From NCBI GenBank assembly GCA_965205505.1, contig CBDBHB010000007.1, forward strand, positions 1 through 64,000: a stretch of 64,000 bases of DNA. Direction: 5' to 3'. Below are positions 8,798 to 52,085 of this stretch, one piece after another. Under the pieces are notes generated by a model. That model did not search any database and was not told where the DNA came from. It saw only the letters and a list, made by a program, of their open reading frames with translations. How positions within the stretch are numbered: the first letter of the stretch is position 1; the number at the start of each line of letters is the position of its first letter. Position numbers and translations under genes: made by a program. The DNA comes from Acidobacteriota bacterium. GTDB lineage: Bacteria; Acidobacteriota; UBA890; WLXD01.

Positions 8798-9637
8798 ATG
8801 ATAGCTTATAGCATCTTCAACAATTGTTGGCCTTGGTTTAACGTGTTTTCACGACTCAACAATATTTTGACGATTCAAAAGACAGTCTCATATCTTCTTG
8901 CTGCTCTTGTCGGGCTGGCACTGTCTGCAAGCGCGGCGGACGCGCAGAGCCTCCGTGGCAGCCGCAGCTCGATGGACCGCCAGAACCACCAGGCTAGCGT
9001 GCACGACTTCACGTTCATGCGCGACGGAACGCACGTTTCCCGGTTCGTAAGCGCCGGCTTGCTGGTGCAGCTGCGCGGCAATCGCGACTACACCCTCAAG
9101 GATCTCTCATACCCCTACGCGCGGCCGGAGGTAAAGCTCTTCACCGAGCGGTTGGCGGCGCAGTTTCGCGCCGCCTGCGGCGAGCAACTGGTGGTCACCA
9201 GCCTGACGCGCCCGCAAACCGGTCAGCCGCGCAACGCATCGCCCCGGTCGGTACACCCGACCGGGATGGCAATCGACCTGCGGCGGCACAACAAGCCGTC
9301 GTGTCGTAGCTGGCTCGAGAGAATCCTGCTGTCGCTCGAAGAGCGCGGCGTGCTCGAGGCCGCGGCCGAGAAACACCCGCCGCACTACCACGTGGCGCTG
9401 TTCCCACGCCAGTATGCCGAGTATGTGCGGCAACTTGTCGGCCGGTCGAGTCCGCGTTCCGGCACCGGATTCACCGATGTCGTGGCCTACAGAGTGAGTC
9501 GTAGTGACACGCTCTGGAGAATCGCGCAGAACCACGGCACAACGACCGACCGTATCCAGTCCAACAACGCGCTGCAGTCGACGCGCATCTACCCCGGCCA
9601 AGTTCTTCAGGTTCCAGTTCCGAGCCGACGGAAATAG
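8798..9637 (+). CDS. Secreted M15/LAS-like peptidase (DUF5715-like) with C-terminal LysM domain
   Basis: Signal peptide ending ADA-Q; SLTR...SVHPTGMAIDL...HYHV zinc motif; LysM YRVSRSDTLWRIA...IYPGQVL. Likely start is TTG at 8867. Confidence 0.8.
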   Translation: MIAYSIFNNCWPWFNVFSRLNNILTIQKTVSYLLAALVGLALSASAADAQSLRGSRSSMDRQNHQASVHDFTFMRDGTHVSRFVSAGLLVQLRGNRDYTLKDLSYPYARPEVKLFTERLAAQFRAACGEQLVVTSLTRPQTGQPRNASPRSVHPTGMAIDLRRHNKPSCRSWLERILLSLEERGVLEAAAEKHPPHYHVALFPRQYAEYVRQLVGRSSPRSGTGFTDVVAYRVSRSDTLWRIAQNHGTTTDRIQSNNALQSTRIYPGQVLQVPVPSRRK

Positions 9638-9641
9638 GCCA

Positions 9642-9917
9642 CTAGTGGTCTGTAACAGATGATCGTTGCGTATCGTGGTGGCGAAATGGGTCCGGATGCC
9701 AGGCGCGACGACGAGACGATGTTTGCCCATCTTGGAGGAGGAGCAACGCCGCAGACGGGCCGATTTCGCCGCCATCCTCCGGACAGATGGGCAGTTGCGG
9801 GCGATATCGGCGTTGCGCCTCGTCGACGATGCCCTCTGCATCGCCTTCCTCGCCGCGCCTTGATCTCACCCGCAAATCCCATCTGCGATAGGCAACGATC
9901 ATCTGCTACAGGCCACT
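9642..9917. repeat. 276-bp palindromic MITE-like repeat with 34-bp CTAG-ended terminal inverted repeats (copy 1); final AG displaced to 11324-11325 by the IS
   Basis: Left TIR CTAGTGGTCTGTAACAGATGATCGTTGCGTATCG (9642-9675) matches the reverse complement of 9886-9917+AG with 3 mismatches; second copy at 50320-50595. Confidence 0.85.
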
Positions 9918-9931
9918 TCTATGAGAAGGCC

Positions 9932-10177
9932 TAGTTCGGTCAAGGGCAATGTGGTGGCCAGCGAAGAATCGATCTGCACGCCATGCTCCTATTCGCACTC
10001 TGGTGGACGAGGATTCAGGTCGTCCGGTGCATTCTGGGGTCCGTCCCGATTCGAGGCGCTGCAATCTAGCTGCCGAGCTCGAAGCTCGTAGTGACCTTCG
10101 CAGTCGCCCGGACCGGGCGGTCAGATCGATAACCGTTGGGTCGCGTCGCCCTACCGACCTCCTGGTTGCGGGTTAGT
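9932..10177 (-). ncRNA. Putative bridge/seek RNA region of IS copy 1
   Basis: Non-coding region 3' of the transposase with stem, internal loop and hairpin (10055-10108); loop strands match the target halves; exact RNA ends unknown. Confidence 0.7.
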
Positions 10178-11224
10178 TCATGCTGCTGAAACCTCTACAG
10201 GTGCGCGCAACGGTTCGTACTCGTCTCCACTCAGCCACAGTCGGTGCAGCACAACGGCGAGCTTACGGGCGACAGCAACTGCTGCCTTTTTGTTGCCATG
10301 AGGACCACCGCGTCCGGCCAGCTTGAGCCCCCAGCGTCTGAGCTCAGTATCGGGCCCGAAGGGGCCCAGGATGTAATGCGCCGAGCCCACCAACAGGCGT
10401 CGGAGCATTTTGTCGCCCGCCTTGGTTATTCGTAGCGCAGGGTCCTTGTCCCCCGACTGCCGTTTCTTCGGTCTCAGTCCCAGGTACGGGCCCACGGCTC
10501 TGGAGGTATTGAACCGCTCCGGCTCCTCGAGCGTCAGCACATACGCCAGTGCGGTCAGAGCTCCGACCCCGGCCACTTGCTGGAGCTGCTGTGTCTCCGG
10601 GTATCGCCCCTGGCACAGCTGCACGATCTGACGCTCGTATTGCTGGATGTTGCCCGTCAGCATGGCGATCGTTTCAAGCACCGGCTCGAGCGCTCCCTTG
10701 AGCCGCTCCGGTATGTGCTCTGGCGCGGTGCGCGCGAACGCCGGCGTCGAGCACCTGGGAATACGACAACCGGCCGACTTGACCGCACCACGCACATGGC
10801 TCACCAACTGCGTGCGGCTCTTTACCAGAGCATCTCGGCTCCGAATCACGGCTAGATCCGCTCGCGCTTGTCTGCCTCGATGCTGCACCGTCTTAAGCAG
10901 CTTTGGGTCCATTCTGCCCACTCGTGCCAGGTGCTCGGCATCCAACCGGTCGGTCTTGTCGTGCTCGCCATAGATCAGCTTCAGCCGCCTCGGGTTAGCC
11001 ACCAGCACCTCATGACCCAGTTGCTTCAACTGCTCACTCATCCACGGCGAGTGCGTTCCAACCTCCAGCACTACTCGAGCGGGCTCCTCGCACCCGAACC
11101 GCCTCGCCAGCCCCTCCGGGCTCGTCCTCACCCGCCCTTCCTCCATCACCCTGCCCTTACTGTCGAGCACGCACATACGGCTGTACCGGTCGCTTACGTC
11201 CAGTCCAATCGTTACACTTGTCAT
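10178..11224 (-). CDS. IS110-family DEDD recombinase/transposase
   Basis: RuvC-like IGLDVS, VLEVG, KTDRLDA; C-terminal YLGLRP...RQSG with the catalytic Ser; AVAVARKLA. Confidence 0.96.
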   Translation of the reverse strand: MTSVTIGLDVSDRYSRMCVLDSKGRVMEEGRVRTSPEGLARRFGCEEPARVVLEVGTHSPWMSEQLKQLGHEVLVANPRRLKLIYGEHDKTDRLDAEHLARVGRMDPKLLKTVQHRGRQARADLAVIRSRDALVKSRTQLVSHVRGAVKSAGCRIPRCSTPAFARTAPEHIPERLKGALEPVLETIAMLTGNIQQYERQIVQLCQGRYPETQQLQQVAGVGALTALAYVLTLEEPERFNTSRAVGPYLGLRPKKRQSGDKDPALRITKAGDKMLRRLLVGSAHYILGPFGPDTELRRWGLKLAGRGGPHGNKKAAVAVARKLAVVLHRLWLSGDEYEPLRAPVEVSAA

Positions 11225-11321
11225 CGGCCAACCTCCTTGGGCTTCGAGCCCGTTACGTTTGAAGAAACGTTTGCAGAGCCGTCAGGCTACTGCGTTCAGG
11301 AGGTTGGCCTTCTCATCTCAT

Positions 11322-12485
11322 CTAGTTTCCGGGCGCAGCGACTCGACGAAACAACGCGTCGTAGGACGATGCCAGGTGATCCCAGCCGTGGCGCCGCGCT
11401 ACCTCGGCGGCCAGACCATCCGTTCCGGCTCGCCAACGCGCCGGATCCCGCAGCACACTCACGAGCTTGCGTTCCAGCTCGTCGCTGCCGACGTACAGGC
11501 ACAGCGAGTGCGTCCGCTCCGGTAGAACCTCCGGATAACTGAGTCGCCGCGGCACGAGGGGAATCGCCCCGGCGGCAACCGCCTCCAGCACGCTGATGCC
11601 GTAGAACTCGTGCCGGGTCGTCGATACCACTACCGTCGCCCTACGAAGCAGGGCAGCATATTCGCGACGTGGGAGGAAGCCGGAGTGGACCACCCGGTTG
11701 CCGAGCTCGCGCATGCCCGTCTCGAAGACGCTTGGCACGCCACCAGGACATTCCCCGCAGAGTGCCACCCGAAAGGGCACCTCCTGCGCCGCCACGTTGC
11801 GCAACGCAGCGAAGAACGCGTCGGGGTTCTTGTCGTACTCCCACCGGTGATTCCACAGCACCAGGGGCGGCTCATCGCACCCCTCTGCGTGACGCTCGGT
11901 GTGCCCGCCGGCGGCGGTGCGGAGATCATCGACTCGAATGCCGGGATATACCACCTCGCTCCGATCGCGCACTTGCTGCACACAGTCGAGCTCGCGCTCG
12001 TCGGGCATCGCCTCGAGGAACCGAGGAAGCCTCGCGAGTAGCTCATCACGATGGAACGCCGAGTTGAACACGACGCGGTCGGCAGCCAGCATCGATACGA
12101 GGTTCACAAAGCCGAAGTGCTCGTTCCCCGGTCCACGCTGGTGCTGTCGCCGTCGTTCGCGAACGTCGTCCGGGAGTGGGTAGGTGAGCTGGTTCTCGTG
12201 CATGTACAAGACGAGTGGCACCGGCGGCTTGTGCCAGCGAATCAATGCCAGAAACGTCGTCACGTCGAGCATGTCGGTGGCCAGAATCACGTCGACCGGC
12301 TGGAGATCCACATATTGCCGCGCCAGGGTGATCGCCGCCCCACGCATGCGCCACTTCCAAAAGCGGCCGGAAAGCGTGAGCAGCTCGAGGTCGAGCCCGC
12401 TGTGCTCGGCCAGCCCTTCGGCCCATGACGCATGGCTGCCTCCGTGGAATGGAGACAACAAGGCGACGCGGATCGAGGTATCCAA
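11322..12485 (-). CDS. Glycosyltransferase family 4 (DUF3524/GTDC1-like)
   Basis: PFHGGSH, FWKWRMRG, YMHENQLTYP, WNHRWEYDKNP and EFYGISVLEA motifs; stop codon overlaps the IS core/CTAG. Confidence 0.88.
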   Translation of the reverse strand: MDTSIRVALLSPFHGGSHASWAEGLAEHSGLDLELLTLSGRFWKWRMRGAAITLARQYVDLQPVDVILATDMLDVTTFLALIRWHKPPVPLVLYMHENQLTYPLPDDVRERRRQHQRGPGNEHFGFVNLVSMLAADRVVFNSAFHRDELLARLPRFLEAMPDERELDCVQQVRDRSEVVYPGIRVDDLRTAAGGHTERHAEGCDEPPLVLWNHRWEYDKNPDAFFAALRNVAAQEVPFRVALCGECPGGVPSVFETGMRELGNRVVHSGFLPRREYAALLRRATVVVSTTRHEFYGISVLEAVAAGAIPLVPRRLSYPEVLPERTHSLCLYVGSDELERKLVSVLRDPARWRAGTDGLAAEVARRHGWDHLASSYDALFRRVAAPGN

Positions 12486-13955: not shown

Positions 13956-14032
13956 GGTGAGCGTAGCTCAACGGGCAGAGCACTCGGCTGTGGCCCGAGA
14001 GGTTGGGGGTTCAAGTCCCCTCGCTCACCCCA
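13956..14032 (+). tRNA. tRNA-His(GTG)
   Basis: Cloverleaf with G-1, anticodon arm CTCGG-CTGTGGC-CCGAG, T loop GGTTCAAGTCC, encoded CCA. Confidence 0.95.
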
Positions 14033-14035
14033 TGC

Positions 14036-14110
14036 GCGCCCGTAGCTCAGCACGGATAGAGCGTCAGATTCCGGATCTGAAAGTCGCAGGTTCAAATCCT
14101 GCCGGGCGCA
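14036..14110 (+). tRNA. tRNA-Arg(CCG)
   Basis: Acceptor GCGCCCG/CGGGCGC; anticodon arm TCAGA-TTCCGGA-TCTGA; GGTTCAAATCC. Confidence 0.93.
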
Positions 14111-20730: not shown

Positions 20731-20803
20731 GGGCCGCTAGCTCAACTGGCAGAGCAACGGACTCTTAATCCGTAGGTTCTAGGTTCGATTCCTAGGCGGC
20801 TCA
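20731..20803 (+). tRNA. tRNA-Lys(CTT), intact copy at the right att site
   Basis: Acceptor GGGCCGC/GCGGCTC; ACGGA-CTCTTAA-TCCGT; GGTTCGATTCC. Confidence 0.95.
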
Positions 20804-20900
20804 CCTCTCTCGACAGGTTCATGAAGGGCTTGTCGATCGCCTGCCGGTTTCCGTCACTCGCCCGTGCGGCACGTGACGGCCGGCGGCGGGTAAACGCCGC

Positions 20901-20984
20901 GCGAAAGTGGCGGAATTGGCAGACGCGCTGGCCTTAGGAGCCAGTGGGCTAACGCCCGTGGGGGTTCGAGTCCCCCCTTTCGCA
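20901..20984 (+). tRNA. tRNA-Leu(TAG)
   Basis: GCGAAAG/CTTTCGC; CTGGC-CTTAGGA-GCCAG; long variable arm. Confidence 0.95.
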
Positions 20985-50264: not shown

Positions 50265-50319
50265 TGCTCCTCTAGCAGGGTGCTGAAGAACTCTGCTAAC
50301 AGAGGTTTGTTGCGGGCCA

Positions 50320-50595
50320 CTAGTGGCCTGTAACAGATGATCGTTGCGTATCGTGGTGGCGAAATGGGTCCGGATGCCAGGCGCGACGACGAGACGATGT
50401 TTGCCCATCTTCGAGGAGGAGCAACGCCGCAGACGGGCCGATTTCGCCGCCATCCTCCGGACAGATGGGCAGTTGCGGGCGATATCGGCGTTGCGCCTCG
50501 TCGACGATACCCACTGCATCGCCTTCCTCTCCGCGCCTTGAGCTTGCCCCCATCTCGTCCCAGCAATATGCAACGAACCTCTGACTCAGGCCACT
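50320..50595. repeat. 276-bp MITE-like palindromic repeat, copy 2, interrupted at its right end by IS copy 2
   Basis: Same length as 9642-9917; about 5 mismatches in the first 221 bp, more divergent in the last 55 bp. Confidence 0.85.
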
Positions 50596-50609
50596 TCTAT
50601 GAGAAGGCC

Positions 50610-50855
50610 TAGTTCGGTCAAGGGCAATGTGGTGGCCAGCGAAGAATCGATCTGCACGCCATGCTCCTATTCGCACTCTGGTGGACGAGGATTCAGGTCG
50701 TCCGGTGCATTCTGGGGTCCGTCCCGATTCGAGGCGCTGCAATCTAGCTGCCGAGCTCGAAGCTCGTAGTGACCTTCGCAGTCGCCCGGACCGGGCGGTC
50801 AGATCGATAACCGTTGGGTCGCGTCGCCCTACCGACCTCCTGGTTGCGGGTTAGT
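50610..50855 (-). ncRNA. Putative bridge/seek RNA region of IS copy 2
   Basis: Identical to 9932-10177 by eye; target-binding loop at 50733-50786. Confidence 0.7.
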
Positions 50856-51898
50856 TCATGCTGCTGAAACCTCTACAGGTGCGCGCAACGGTTCGTACTC
50901 GTCTCCACTCAGCCACAGTCGGTGCAGCACAACGGCGAGCTTACGGGCGACAGCAACTGCTGCCTTTTTGTTGCCATGAGGACCACCGCGTCCGGCCAGC
51001 TTGAGCCCCCAGCGTCTGAGCTCAGTATCGGGCCCGAAGGGGCCCAGGATGTAATGCGCCGAGCCCACCAACAGGCGTCGGAGCATTTTGTCGCCCGCCT
51101 TGGTTATTCGTAGCGCAGGGTCCTTGTCCCCCGACTGCCGTTTCTTCGGTCTCAGTCCCAGGTACGGGCCCACGGCTCTGGAGGTATTGAACCGCTCCGG
51201 CTCCTCGAGCGTCAGCACATACGCCAGTGCGGTCAGAGCTCCGACCCCGGCCACTTGCTGGAGCTGCTGTGTCTCCGGGTATCGCCCCTGGCACAGCTGC
51301 ACGATCTGACGCTCGTATTGCTGGATGTTGCCCGTCAGCATGGCGATCGTTTCAAGCACCGGCTCGAGCGCTCCCTTGAGCCGCTCCGGTATGTGCTCTG
51401 GCGCGGTGCGCGCGAACGCCGGCGTCGAGCACCTGGGAATACGACAACCGGCCGACTTGACCGCACCACGCACATGGCTCACCAACTGCGTGCAGCTCTT
51501 TACCAGAGCATCTCGGCTCCGAATCACGGCTAGATCCGCTCGCGCTTGTCTGCCTCGATGCTGCACCGTCTTAAGCAGCTTTGGGTCCATTCTGCCCACT
51601 CGTGCCAGGTGCTCGGCATCCAACCGGTCGGTCCGTGCTCGCCATAGATCAGCTTCAGCCGCCTCGGGTTAGCCACCAGCACCTCATGACCCAGTTGCTT
51701 CAACTGCTCACTCATCCACGGCGAGTGCGTTCCAACCTCCAGCACTACTCGAGCGGGCTCCTCGCACCCGAACCGCCTCGCCAGCCCCTCCGGGCTCGTC
51801 CTCACCCGCCCTTCCTCCATCACCCTGCCCTTACTGTCGAGCACGCACATACGGCTGTACCGGTCGCTTACGTCCAGTCCAATCGTTACACTTGTCAT
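50856..51898 (-). pseudogene. IS110-family transposase, frameshifted
   Basis: TTGT deleted between 51633 and 51634 relative to copy 1, splitting the gene at KTDRLD into 122-aa and 255-aa ORFs. Confidence 0.9.
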
Positions 51899-52085
51899 CG
51901 GCCAACCTCCTTGGGCTTCGAGCCCGTTACGTTTGAAGAAACGTTTGCAGAGCCGTCAGGCTACTGCGTTCAGGAGGTTGGCCTTCTCATCTCATCTAGC
52001 AGTCACGGGGTCCACCGCGGCGACGCCGGCGGCGAGACACTGGAGCGGACCCGCAGCCGCAGACGCGCCTTGCTACAATCGACGC

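What the first reader, a model, noticed from the sequence alone, without database searches (positions are those of the whole stretch)
9932..10177. Bridge/seek-RNA target-binding loop whose guides match the element's own insertion sites
Seen: read on the transposase strand, 10108-10055 folds as stem GGCGACUGC, loop GAAGGUCACUA, hairpin CGAGC-UUCGA-GCUCG, loop GCAGCUAGAUU, stem GCAGCGCC. Removing the IS restores the target CAGGCCA-CT-AG at both loci (followed by T in copy 1, C in copy 2). The left loop AGGUCACU matches AGGCCACT at 7 of 8 positions, the exception being a U-G wobble. The right loop GCUAG is the reverse complement of CTAG(C). Established: this is the left-guide/hairpin/right-guide layout around a CT core described for the IS621 bridge RNA, and IS1111-group elements carry the RNA downstream of the recombinase. 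Inference: a natural RNA-guided recombinase with a readable target specificity, supported by two insertions in this window. A donor loop is not clear; AUAGGAG further downstream resembles the junction ATAGAAG.
Basis: partly seen in the sequence, partly recalled or inferred. Interest (0 to 1): 0.88.

Follow-up and report, generated by a model that had tools for sequence, protein, structure and literature searches.

The report
Bridge RNA of an IS1111-type element
This is a mobile DNA element that carries its own small guide RNA, whose two short guide stretches match the DNA site where the element inserts; it is a sound but ordinary new example of a mechanism described in 2024.

Summary
Window 9916-11321 (minus strand) is a 1,406-bp IS110-family element of the IS1111 type. 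The host genome has 28 full copies.

- **5' guide:** AGGUCACU pairs with core AG plus right flank TGGCCT, with one G-U wobble.
- **3' guide:** CUAG matches left flank CT plus core AG. The next two bases, AU, match the first two bases of the element.
- **Target logo:** 26 parsed sites give CT-AG-TGGCCT, which is exactly the guide-covered positions.

The match in this one element is weak evidence by itself (about 3% by chance). The decisive evidence is comparative. In 57 non-redundant homologues (45-60% protein identity), the 5' guide tracks the right flank in 41 (1% of non-cognate pairs). In 47, the 3' guide tracks the left flank at positions -1 to -4 in 37-45. No permutation of 20,000 reached either score. 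The stems show compensatory changes.

A left donor guide is not resolved. RNA expression is not shown.

Verdict: a genuine natural bridge/seekRNA, and a new member of a known kind. Interest is moderate to low.

The parts
9916..11321 (-). IS copy 1, 1,406 bp counting one copy of the core AG. The left junction reads flank-CT-AG|ATGAG...; the right junction reads ...CATAGA-AG|TGGCCT.
   Evidence: Alignment of the two window copies, 28 genome copies, coordinates.
10178..11224 (-). Transposase gene, 348 aa, DEDD/RuvC-like domain plus Transposase_20 domain. Motif GL-P----SG at G249/L250...P252...S257/G258.
11306..11316 (-). Left subterminal inverted repeat ATGAGAAGGCC, preceded by the 5-nt terminal extension ATGAG (11321-11317).
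   Evidence: Read. It is the reverse complement of 9921-9931.
9921..9931 (-). Right subterminal inverted repeat GGCCTTCTCAT, followed by AGA and the core AG (9920-9916).
10122..10130 (-). 5' strand (AUCGAUCUG) of a long-range stem that closes the whole RNA domain. Its partner is 9968-9976. The domain is about 163 nt.
   Evidence: MFE fold. Across 77 homologues the cognate helix averages 7.97 bp against 6.85 for non-cognate pairs, and 0 of 5,000 permutations reach the observed sum.
10055..10108 (-). Target-binding loop module: stem (with a bulged A), 5' guide loop, hairpin, 3' guide loop, stem.
   Evidence: The 54 nt are identical in 28/28 genome copies.
10090..10097 (-). 5' guide AGGUCACU. It is complementary to the transposase-strand sequence AG-TGGCCT (core plus right flank) with one G-U wobble.
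   Evidence: Family covariation.
10064..10069 (-). 3' guide CUAG (left flank CT plus core AG; same sense as the transposase strand, so it pairs with the other strand). It is followed by AU, which matches the first two bases of the left end, in the position of the IS621 handshake guide.
   Evidence: IS621 handshake guide from PMC11208158. The handshake role here is inference.
10031..10042 (-). GGACCCCAGAAU, a candidate left donor guide. In homologues ACC(C/U)CA can pair with left-end bases +2 to +7. In this element only 4 of 6 pairs form.
   Evidence: partial covariation. Unresolved.
9995..10030 (-). Hairpin of the second module: GCAC-C ... G-A-GUGC closing a GC-rich stem-loop. The four closing pairs are invariant in 22 of 22 aligned sequences.
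9986..9993 (-). Right donor-guide-like segment AAUAGGAG. It has the same sense as the right-end terminus CATAGA-AG, with one G-T wobble.
   Evidence: The RNA heptamer equals the right-end heptamer in 53 of 55 parsed homologues, including AUAGAAA with ATAGAAA.
9938..9943 (-). TTGACC, a -35-like hexamer 22 nt from the right end. The homologue right ends printed carry TTGAC at a similar distance. A -10-like GAAGAT would form only across a right-end/left-end junction.
   Evidence: Read. No sigma-70-like promoter was found inside the linear copy. Junction promoter role is inference, after PMC11187229 section 8.
9910..9915 (-). Right target flank TGGCCT of copy 1.
11322..11325 (-). Left target flank CT plus the left junction copy of the core AG.
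50594..51995 (-). IS copy 2. Its target-binding loop (50733-50786) is identical to copy 1. Its transposase gene is broken by a 4-nt deletion (the bases corresponding to 10956-10959 of copy 1).
9637..9915 (.). MITE-like repeat (about 280 nt) with terminal inverted repeats of about 30 nt. The outermost bases of the repeat carry the IS target. The second copy is at 50315-50593.

Best explanation
**What it is.** Window 9916-11321 (minus strand) is an IS110-family insertion sequence of the IS1111 type. Its 3' non-coding region encodes a bridge RNA (seekRNA) of about 163 nt (10130-9968).

**First module: target-binding loop (10108-10055).**
- The 5' guide AGGUCACU pairs with the transposase-strand sequence AG-TGGCCT.
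- The 3' guide CUAG pairs with the opposite strand of CT-AG.
- Together the RNA reads both strands of a 10-bp site, CT-AG-TGGCCT, overlapping at the core AG (CT on the window plus strand).
- The AU after the 3' guide matches the first bases of the left end. It could pair with donor DNA after strand exchange, as the IS621 handshake guide does.

**Second module: donor side (10042-9986).** It presents AAUAGGAG, which matches the right-end terminus plus core. This gives at least half of a donor-binding loop.

**Proposed cycle.**
1. The element excises as a circle.
2. The joined ends create a promoter that transcribes the transposase gene and the RNA.
3. The DEDD/serine recombinase, loaded with the RNA, exchanges strands at the core between the circle junction and the target.

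**Where it lands.** The target lies at the tip of the terminal inverted repeat of a MITE-like repeat. That explains the 28 insertions and the 109 remaining free sites.

**Shown here:** anatomy, target logo, structure covariation, and guide-flank covariation.

**Inferred from published relatives:** expression and processing of the RNA, binding to the recombinase, the circular intermediate, the junction promoter, and the handshake role.
For: **Family membership**
- Pfam DEDD_Tnp_IS110 (64.6 bits) and Transposase_20 (62.3 bits).
- NCBIfam NF033542 'IS110 family RNA-guided transposase', 205.5 bits against a cut-off of 140.
- D9, E54, D92, D95, S257 and G258 are invariant in 14 aligned homologues.
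- An 11-bp subterminal inverted repeat. The non-coding region is 262 nt after the gene against 97 nt before it.

**Target**
- 26 parsed sites give CT-AG-TGGCCT.
- The one copy with right flank TGACCT is a perfect Watson-Crick match to the guide.

**Structure**
- 22 homologous RNAs share the scaffold.
- 94.9% of cells form standard pairs against 86.4% in shuffles.
- 9 of 17 pairs show changes on both sides.
- 0 of 500 shuffles reach any of the five measures. Slid controls pair at 26-48%.

**Guide-flank covariation (non-redundant, unpublished L035 excluded)**
- 5' guide against reverse complement of core plus right flank: an exact run of 7 nt or more in 41/57 cognate pairs against 1.0% of non-cognate pairs. 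Means are 7.28 against 3.29. 0 of 20,000 permutations reach the observed sum.
- 3' guide against left flank: positions -1 to -4 match in 45, 37, 42 and 40 of 47. The mean over six positions is 4.34 against 1.62. 0 of 20,000 permutations reach the observed sum.

**Natural retargeting**
- L043 and L044 have transposases 81.7% identical but different guides and correspondingly different flanks.
- L050 is one of the three closest relatives by protein identity (66.7% over residues 141-341; L051 and L053 score 69-70% over shorter stretches). It has a 5' guide matching its own, different, flank.

**Core covariation**
- Three elements with core AA (L043, L044, L127) have 5' guides ending UU and donor guides ending AA; the 3' guides of L044 and L127 read AAAU, and that of L043 reads AAAC.

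**Other**
- Donor guide equals right-end heptamer in 53/55.
- The guide order matches IS1111 seekRNAs (PMC11187229 section 9).
- The long closing stem gives a size within the published 145-170 nt 'long seekRNA' range.
- The 54-nt loop module is identical in 28/28 copies, although 18/28 transposase genes are broken.
Against: - **No direct RNA evidence.** Four metatranscriptome runs from a single study hold contigs covering the element, including the non-coding region. Contigs cannot show transcription, ends or strand, and DNA may be present in such libraries.
- **The match in this one element is weak.** It occurs by chance about 3% of the time. The 3' guide contributes only CUAG.
- **The fold is not unusually stable.** The region's energy z-score is -1.44, and 12 of 200 shuffles fold at least as well.
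- **Some homologues fail the test.** 16 of 57 cognate pairs have fewer than 7 matching bases. Some failures come from my regex anchors or from a wobble; L049 has its match offset by 7 nt. 17 of the 80 loci could not be parsed at all.
- **Context cannot be separated from recognition.** Target conservation beyond the guide-covered bases (+7 G in 22/26, and further) reflects the MITE context. A contribution of protein or DNA-structure recognition is therefore not excluded.
- **The donor module's role is uncertain.** The left donor guide is unresolved here (4 of 6 pairs). In ISEc11 the short 82-nt seekRNA sufficed for transposition (PMC11187229 section 10).
- **Homologues are related by descent.** Permutation tests therefore overstate independence.
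Confidence: 0.9

Rival explanations
1. The RNA is a target-only seekRNA. Only the first module (about 54-80 nt) is functional. The second module is a precursor or processing scaffold, or a protein-binding site. End recognition would be done by the protein on the subterminal inverted repeats, not by RNA-donor pairing.
For: - In ISEc11 the short 82-nt seekRNA moved a mini-IS more efficiently than the long form (PMC11187229 section 10).
- The authors state that the IS1111 mechanism may differ from IS110 and that the role of the long RNA is not established (section 14).
- The left donor guide is unresolved here.
- The GCAC/GUGC pairs never vary, so they say nothing about structure.
Against: - The RNA heptamer AU(A/G)GAA(G/A) equals the right-end heptamer in 53/55 homologues, including the rare AA core. 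That is hard to explain without pairing.
- Durrant et al. report donor-complementary loops in IS1111 elements they inspected (PMC11208160, passage seen).
- A covarying closing stem encloses both modules.
Confidence: 0.25
2. Target choice is mainly made by the protein, or by a DNA structure formed by the MITE terminal repeat (a palindrome or hairpin). The RNA matches would then be secondary or only fine-tune the choice.
For: - All or nearly all insertions lie in one repeat family, whose sequence is conserved beyond the guide-covered bases.
- IS110-family elements often sit in palindromic repeats.
- A 2026 preprint on ISPpu10 reports a 'sequence-structure dual-match' (10.64898/2026.03.19.712850; only the start of the abstract was seen, in the listing).
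Against: - In homologues with entirely different targets, the guides change to match them.
- The left flank beyond CT is unrelated among the 26 sites, yet insertion is exact.
Confidence: 0.07
3. The resemblance is chance, in a structured 3' untranslated region or terminator. There is no guide function.
For: - The single-element match has about a 3% chance.
- The fold z-score is only -1.44.
- No Rfam family matches.
Against: - Guide-flank covariation: 0 of 20,000 permutations reach the observed score for each guide.
- Compensatory stem changes.
- No terminator-like site on the transposase strand in this region.
Confidence: 0.02

Closest known systems
IS1111-family seekRNA elements ISEc11, ISPa11, ISKpn4 and ISPst6 (Siddiquee et al. 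2024, PMC11187229; sections 6, 8, 9, 10, 13 and 14 read)
   Same: - DEDD transposase of 330-350 aa with the GL-P----S(t)G motif.
- Subterminal inverted repeats.
- Long non-coding region after the gene.
- An RNA with a top-strand-complementary segment 5' of a bottom-strand-complementary segment, overlapping in the target.
- A long form of 145-170 nt.
- Insertion into repeated palindromic DNA, as for ISPa11 in REP sequences.
   Different: - No plasmid-borne IS110-family transposase in PLSDB exceeds 36.7% identity to this protein. Whether the named elements are among those hits was not checked.
- The target is a different 10-bp site, at the tip of a MITE-like terminal repeat.
- No experimental data exist for this element.
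- Here a donor-side segment and a two-base 'AU' after the 3' guide are visible by comparison. The sections I read do not describe these for the IS1111 seekRNAs.
IS621 bridge RNA, IS110 group (Durrant et al. 2024, PMC11208160, passages only; Hiraizumi et al. 2024, PMC11208158, passages only)
   Same: Read with the core as CT (window plus strand), the geometry is the same:
- The 5' loop strand has the sense of left target plus core, so it pairs with the bottom strand.
- The 3' loop strand pairs with core plus right target on the top strand.
- Two further bases then match the donor next to the core, the handshake position.
- The closing stem has a bulged A.
- Natural G-U/G-T wobbles occur in a target guide and a donor guide.
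- There is a second, donor-directed module.
   Different: - The RNA lies after, not before, the recombinase gene.
- Both the gene and the RNA are encoded on the strand opposite to the CT-reading strand.
- The subterminal repeats are long (11 bp).
- The right-target guide reads only 2 bases beyond the core in this element (4-5 in most homologues).
- The left donor guide is not resolved.
- No handshake-like covariation was seen after the donor guide (my reading).
ISPpu9 and ISPpu10 of Pseudomonas putida (PMC12288879; 10.64898/2026.03.19.712850; only titles and abstract starts seen, in the listings)
   Same: IS110-family elements in multiple copies, inserted in repeated extragenic palindromes. 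ISPpu9 has a small RNA gene after the transposase gene.
   Different: The sequences were not compared here. Copies of the RNA gene without a transposase gene were not searched for beyond three truncated IS copies.

Membership tests
IS110 family (DEDD transposase) | N-terminal DEDD/RuvC-like domain plus C-terminal Transposase_20 domain | tested here: met
   PF01548 at 64.6 bits (cut-off 29) and PF02371 at 62.3 bits (cut-off 21.3). NF033542 at 205.5 bits (cut-off 140).
IS110 family (DEDD transposase) | Catalytic D-E-D-D and the SG serine motif | tested here: met
   D9, E54, D92, D95, S257 and G258 are invariant in 14 aligned homologues. That these are the catalytic residues rests on their position and on PMC11187229 section 6 and PMC11208158. 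It was not tested.
IS110 family (DEDD transposase) | Site-specific insertion with a shared core dinucleotide at both junctions and no conventional terminal inverted repeats | tested here: met
   AG is present at both junctions in 26/26 parsed copies. An uninterrupted CAGGCCACTAG is present at the other end of the same MITE in copy 2. 109 free CTAGTGGCCT sites exist in the genome.
IS1111 group | Subterminal inverted repeats of 7-17 bp | tested here: met
   ATGAGAAGGCC (11316-11306) and GGCCTTCTCAT (9931-9921): 11 bp, set back 5 and 3 nt (plus core) from the ends. The 7-17 bp criterion is from PMC11208160.
IS1111 group | Longer non-coding region downstream of the transposase gene | tested here: met
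   262 nt downstream (10177-9916) against 97 nt upstream (11321-11225). Criterion from PMC11187229 section 6.
IS1111 group | Transposase of 330-350 aa with the GL-P----S(t)G motif | tested here: met
   348 aa. G249-L250-x-P252-xxxx-S257-G258.
Bridge RNA / seekRNA | Internal loop with two guide segments complementary to opposite strands of the target, overlapping at the core | tested here: met
   10097-10090 and 10069-10066 against CT-AG-TGGCCT. Strand assignment of the palindromic CUAG comes from the family.
Bridge RNA / seekRNA | Guides covary with target flanks among orthologues | tested here: met
   41/57 and positions -1 to -4 in 37-45/47. 0 of 20,000 permutations for each guide.
Bridge RNA / seekRNA | Conserved secondary structure supported by compensatory changes | tested here: met
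   helix 1 has 6 of 9 pairs with double changes and helix 2 has 3 of 4. Helix 3 is invariant and therefore uninformative.
Bridge RNA / seekRNA | Donor-binding loop with left and right donor guides | tested here: inconclusive
   The right donor-guide-like segment tracks the right end in 53/55. The left donor guide shows only partial covariation and forms 4 of 6 pairs in this element.
Bridge RNA / seekRNA | The RNA is expressed and bound by the recombinase | tested here: inconclusive
   Contigs of four metatranscriptome runs from one study cover 9919-11227. This shows presence in RNA libraries only. Binding cannot be tested with these tools.
Bridge RNA / seekRNA | Changing the guides changes the target (programmability) | not testable with these tools
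   Only natural retargeting was seen: L043/L044 at 81.7% protein identity with different guides and flanks.
Rfam RNA family | Match to a curated covariance model | tested here: not met
   No match at gathering score in the window apart from 4 tRNAs. No match at E up to 10 in 9880-10200.

The most novel reading that the evidence does not exclude
This clade (at least 57 distinct natural guide/target pairs across several phyla) would show that IS1111-type seekRNAs are complete two-module bridge RNAs. They would share the IS621 pairing geometry, including a two-base handshake position and a donor guide, all enclosed by one closing stem. The difference is that the recombinase and RNA genes lie on the strand opposite the CT core. 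That would explain the published 'reversed order' of matches as a simple flip, not a different mechanism.

In this element the guide uses a G-U wobble on its abundant MITE target. Its perfect target is rare: 2 free sites and 1 occupied. That suggests a guide which tolerates, or recently drifted onto, a repeat-borne site.
Probability: 0.45. Interest if true: 0.5.

Novelty: new member of a known kind. Interest (0 to 1): 0.35.

Why it matters
**Practical value**
- It adds a well-documented natural RNA-guided recombinase with a short, readable 10-bp target.
- It has 28 natural insertions and 109 free sites in one genome.
- Dozens of relatives have guides and targets that can be read directly from sequence.
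- This is useful raw material for mining bridge recombinases and for annotating these non-coding regions, which Rfam does not cover.

**Biological points**
- RNA-guided insertion into the tip of a MITE lets an IS multiply without hitting genes.
- Copies with broken transposase genes keep an intact guide RNA.

It does not change what is known about the mechanism.

Tried and rejected

- Rfam: no family matched.
- DNA search of plasmids: only a 43-nt match.

**RNA expression.** I looked for public RNA runs and laid four metatranscriptome runs from one study.
- Contigs cover the element.
- In X2-X4 the contigs over about 9919-10632 have word depth 16.5-17.9, against 4.3-6.9 for contigs over the 5' part of the gene.
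- Contig depth cannot rank parts of a gene, the runs are one study, and contigs break at repeat borders. I draw no conclusion on expression or RNA ends.
- No joint across a right-end/left-end junction was reported.

**Left donor guide**
- Mutual information between fixed-offset columns on either side of the second hairpin gave no clear helix.
- Comparing ACC(C/U)CA with left-end variants gave only partial agreement. For the U/A position, 3 elements agree and 4 (including this one) do not. For the T/A position, 3 of 3 agree.

**Handshake after the donor guide.** By eye, the bases after GAAG are a near-constant C and do not follow the right flank. Rejected.

**Internal promoter for the RNA.** None was found.

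**Orthologous empty site.** The closest congener, G118 (90% identical flank), lacks both the MITE and the IS at this locus. It shows an empty MITE site, not an empty IS site. Empty IS sites were therefore taken from paralogous MITE ends.

**Rows dropped**
- Seven distant loci (28.6-33.8% identity: L052, L054-L057, L059, L060) lack the scaffold motifs and were not analysed.
- 17 of 80 loci failed my regex anchors.
- L048 was excluded from the right-flank test because its right flank repeats IS-internal sequence.
- L035 comes from an unpublished genome (G152). It is included but excluded. No claim in this report rests on it.
- Duplicates were removed by guide sequence before the counts.

**Limits**
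- Supplementary files of the papers were closed. The IS1111 bridge-RNA predictions in Durrant et al.'s supplementary tables, and the target logos of Siddiquee et al., may already include close relatives of this clade.
- ISfinder could not be consulted.
Full report
**The element**

The finding lies in the non-coding region after a 348-aa gene on the minus strand (10178-11224).
- The protein has the two Pfam domains of IS110-family transposases.
- It scores 205.5 bits on NCBIfam NF033542, 'IS110 family RNA-guided transposase'.
- An alignment with 13 homologues keeps D9, E54, D92 and D95 invariant, together with the G-L-x-P-xxxx-S-G motif at 249-258. That motif is given for IS1111-type transposases in PMC11187229 section 6.

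The window holds two copies. The host genome holds 28 full-length copies plus fragments.

On the transposase strand every copy reads: flank-CT-AG, then ATGAGATGAGAAGGCC..., GGCCTTCTCATAGA-AG, then TGGCCT.
- The element therefore runs from 11321 to 9916.
- It has 11-bp subterminal inverted repeats.
- An AG dinucleotide is present at both junctions.
- The non-coding region is 262 nt after the gene and 97 nt before it.

These are the published marks of the IS1111 group.

**The observation**

They appear in the minimum-free-energy fold of the region, although the region as a whole is not unusually stable (z = -1.44).

The target logo from 26 parsed insertion sites (2 of 28 were skipped by my anchors) is as follows:

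| Position (transposase strand) | Base | Count |
|---|---|---|
| Left flank -4 | C | 24/26 |
| Left flank -3 | T | 25/26 |
| Core | AG | 26/26 |
| Right flank +1 to +6 | TGGCCT | 25-26/26 each |
| Left flank -5 | no preference | G 9/26 |

- The 5' loop segment AGGUCACU (10097-10090) is complementary to AG-TGGCCT with one G-U wobble.
- The one copy whose flank reads TGACCT is a perfect match.
- The 3' loop segment CUAG (10069-10066) equals CT-AG.
- The conserved positions of the target are exactly those covered by the two segments.

Taken alone, this is weak. An 8-mer with at most one wobble occurs somewhere in a shuffled 262-nt region in 3.1% of 100,000 shuffles, and CUAG is a palindrome.

**Comparative evidence**

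I collected relatives of the transposase from two sources:
- 400 genomes of the same phylum (the best hit outside the host genome is 58% identical);
- one genome per species of the public collection (best 60%, from metagenome-assembled genomes labelled Acidobacteriota, Gemmatimonadota, Planctomycetota, Eremiobacterota, Rubrobacter and others).

Relatives with 45% or more identity carry the same scaffold after the gene, in this order:
1. a stem GG(Y)G-A-CUGC with a bulged A;
2. a conserved G;
3. a variable segment of about 10 nt;
4. a hairpin;
5. a variable segment ending in AGAU;
6. the return strand GCAGC(R)CC;
7. a second module: GGACCCCA..., a hairpin closed by GCAC/GUGC, then G(N)AU(R)GAAGC;
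8. a TTGAC motif at a similar distance from the right end (read from the right ends printed), then the right end.

Structure support on 22 sequences:
- 94.9% of cells form standard pairs, against 86.4% in shuffles and 26-48% when partners are slid.
- 9 of 17 pairs show changes on both sides. One pair, for example, is CG in 9 sequences, UA in 9 and UG in 3.
- No shuffle of 500 reaches the observed values.

**Guides follow flanks**

In each homologue the first variable segment is the reverse complement of core plus right flank. The second equals the left flank followed by the core (tables).

On the non-redundant set, without the unpublished L035:
- The 5' guide shares an exact run of 7 nt or more with its own flank in 41 of 57 elements, against 1.0% of non-cognate pairs.
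- The 3' guide matches its own left flank at positions -1 to -4 in 45, 37, 42 and 40 of 47 elements, and at -5 in 28 of 47.
- None of 20,000 permutations of partners reaches either observed sum.
- The smaller first set gave the same result (it includes L035).

Specific cases:
- Three elements whose core is AA instead of AG have 5' guides ending UU and donor segments ending AA; the 3' guides of L044 and L127 read AAAU, and that of L043 reads AAAC.
- L043 and L044 have transposases 81.7% identical but different guides and correspondingly different flanks.
- L050, one of the three closest relatives by protein identity (66.7% over residues 141-341; L051 and L053 score 69-70% over shorter stretches), has a 5' guide that matches its own, different, flank.

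Exceptions exist. 16 of 57 elements fall below 7 nt. Some are wobble cases (this element among them), some are anchor errors, and L049 has its match offset by 7 nt. 17 of 80 loci could not be parsed. Homologues are related by descent, so the permutation figures overstate independence. The number of distinct targets still makes the signal hard to doubt.

**Donor side and overall architecture**

It equals the last seven bases of the right end in 53 of 55 parsed homologues (35 with G, 17 with A, 1 with the AA core). The 2 exceptions are mis-detected right ends. In this element it differs from ATAGAAG by one G-T wobble in 27 of 28 copies. It therefore behaves as a right donor guide.

*Left donor guide.* The segment before the second hairpin (GGACCCCA...) can pair with left-end bases +2 to +7 in most homologues, and follows some left-end variants. 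The agreement is partial, and in this element only 4 of 6 pairs form. I leave the left donor guide open.

*Closing stem.* A long-range stem (10130-10122 with 9976-9968) encloses both modules. Across 77 homologues the cognate helix is longer than non-cognate ones (7.97 against 6.85 bp; 0 of 5,000 permutations reach the observed sum). The resulting domain of about 163 nt is within the 145-170 nt reported for 'long' seekRNAs.

*Handshake position.* The two bases AU after the 3' guide are near-constant in the family and match the first two bases of the left end. In IS621 the two bases after the right target guide are the 'handshake guide', which pairs with the donor next to the core after strand exchange (PMC11208158). 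A handshake role here is my inference.

*Geometry.* If the site is read with the core as CT (window plus strand), the geometry is that of IS621. The 5' loop strand pairs with the bottom strand of the left target plus core. The 3' loop strand pairs with the top strand of core plus right target. The gene and RNA then lie on the opposite strand. This is the 'reversed order' noted by Siddiquee et al. (abstract and section 14).

**Target context**
- The 10-bp site sits at the tip of the inverted terminal repeat of a MITE-like element of about 280 nt (9637-9915 and 50315-50593 in the window).
- The genome has 25 matches of 250 nt or more to this repeat, and 202 matches in all.
- The genome has 109 uninterrupted CTAGTGGCCT sites, against 13.5 expected from base composition.
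- The perfect-match site CTAGTGACCT occurs only twice uninterrupted.
- A congener (G118) has neither the MITE nor the IS at the orthologous locus.
- Insertion into repeated palindromic DNA is usual for this family. ISPa11 inserts into REP sequences, and IS4321/IS5075 into transposon terminal repeats (title seen in the reference list).

**State of the copies**
- Only 10 of 28 copies keep the 348-aa reading frame.
- 12 share a 4-nt deletion and 5 share a 1-nt deletion.
- Window copy 2 is one of the broken ones.
- The 54-nt target-binding module is identical in all 28 copies.
- Broken copies could be moved in trans, and could still supply RNA. This is inference.

**What is not shown**
- Expression of the RNA is not shown. 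Metatranscriptome contigs from one study cover the element, but contigs cannot prove transcription.
- No promoter-like site lies inside the linear copy.
- A -35-like TTGACC sits 22 nt from the right end. Together with GAAG of the right end and AT of the left end it would give a -10-like GAAGAT only in a circle. This fits the junction promoter described for relatives but is untested.

**Comparison and verdict**

The element meets every sequence-level criterion of the IS1111 group and of a bridge/seekRNA that I could test. The donor loop is half-resolved, and expression and programmability are untested.

It is a new IS:
- no relative above 60% identity in the collections searched;
- at most 36.7% identity to anything in the plasmid collection;
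- no Rfam model matches it.

But it is an ordinary member of a kind described in 2024. Durrant et al. predicted a bridge RNA in 93% of IS1111 elements. A specialist would not be surprised. The value lies in a clean, well-populated natural example and in a family-wide table of guide/target pairs.

Noticed in passing
window 9637-9915 and 50315-50593; genome-wide: A MITE-like repeat of about 280 nt with terminal inverted repeats of about 30 nt. The window copies are 92% identical. The genome has 25 matches of 250 nt or more and 202 matches in all. The tips of its terminal repeats carry the IS target. At the orthologous locus the congener G118 lacks it, so it is itself an insertion. The parent transposon is unknown.
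   Followed up: partly
window 50594-51995 and 17 other genome copies: 18 of 28 IS copies have a broken transposase frame. 12 share the same 4-nt deletion (bases corresponding to window 10956-10959) and 5 share a 1-nt deletion (10815). Defective copies have therefore multiplied or been homogenised, while the guide RNA module stays identical in all 28.
   Followed up: partly
whole genome G000: The tetranucleotide CTAG is strongly under-represented: 5,853 occurrences against 19,712 expected from base composition. The IS target nevertheless contains it.
   Followed up: no
G000:C9:68594-69995: One IS copy sits in a site with right flank TGACCT. This is the perfect Watson-Crick match to the guide, and lies outside the usual MITE context.
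   Followed up: no
L048 (G266:C38), right junction: The right end of this homologue is followed by sequence identical to the start of its own 3' non-coding region. This could be a tandem or nested copy or an assembly artefact. Its 5' guide does not match this flank.
   Followed up: no
L049 (G302:C17), right junction: The 5' guide matches the flank perfectly over 9 nt, but 7 nt further out than in the other elements. Either the right end is 7 nt longer or the junction has been altered.
   Followed up: no
L072-L091 and related loci: A sub-clade carries an extra GC-rich hairpin of about 45 nt inserted between the target module and the donor module (output).
   Followed up: no
G000:C8:891213-892364, C8:147560-148316, C9:311919-313136: Internally deleted or truncated IS copies that retain the 3' RNA region.
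   Followed up: no
window 13957-14110 and 20731-20984: Four tRNA genes (Rfam RF00005, 59-70 bits).
   Followed up: no
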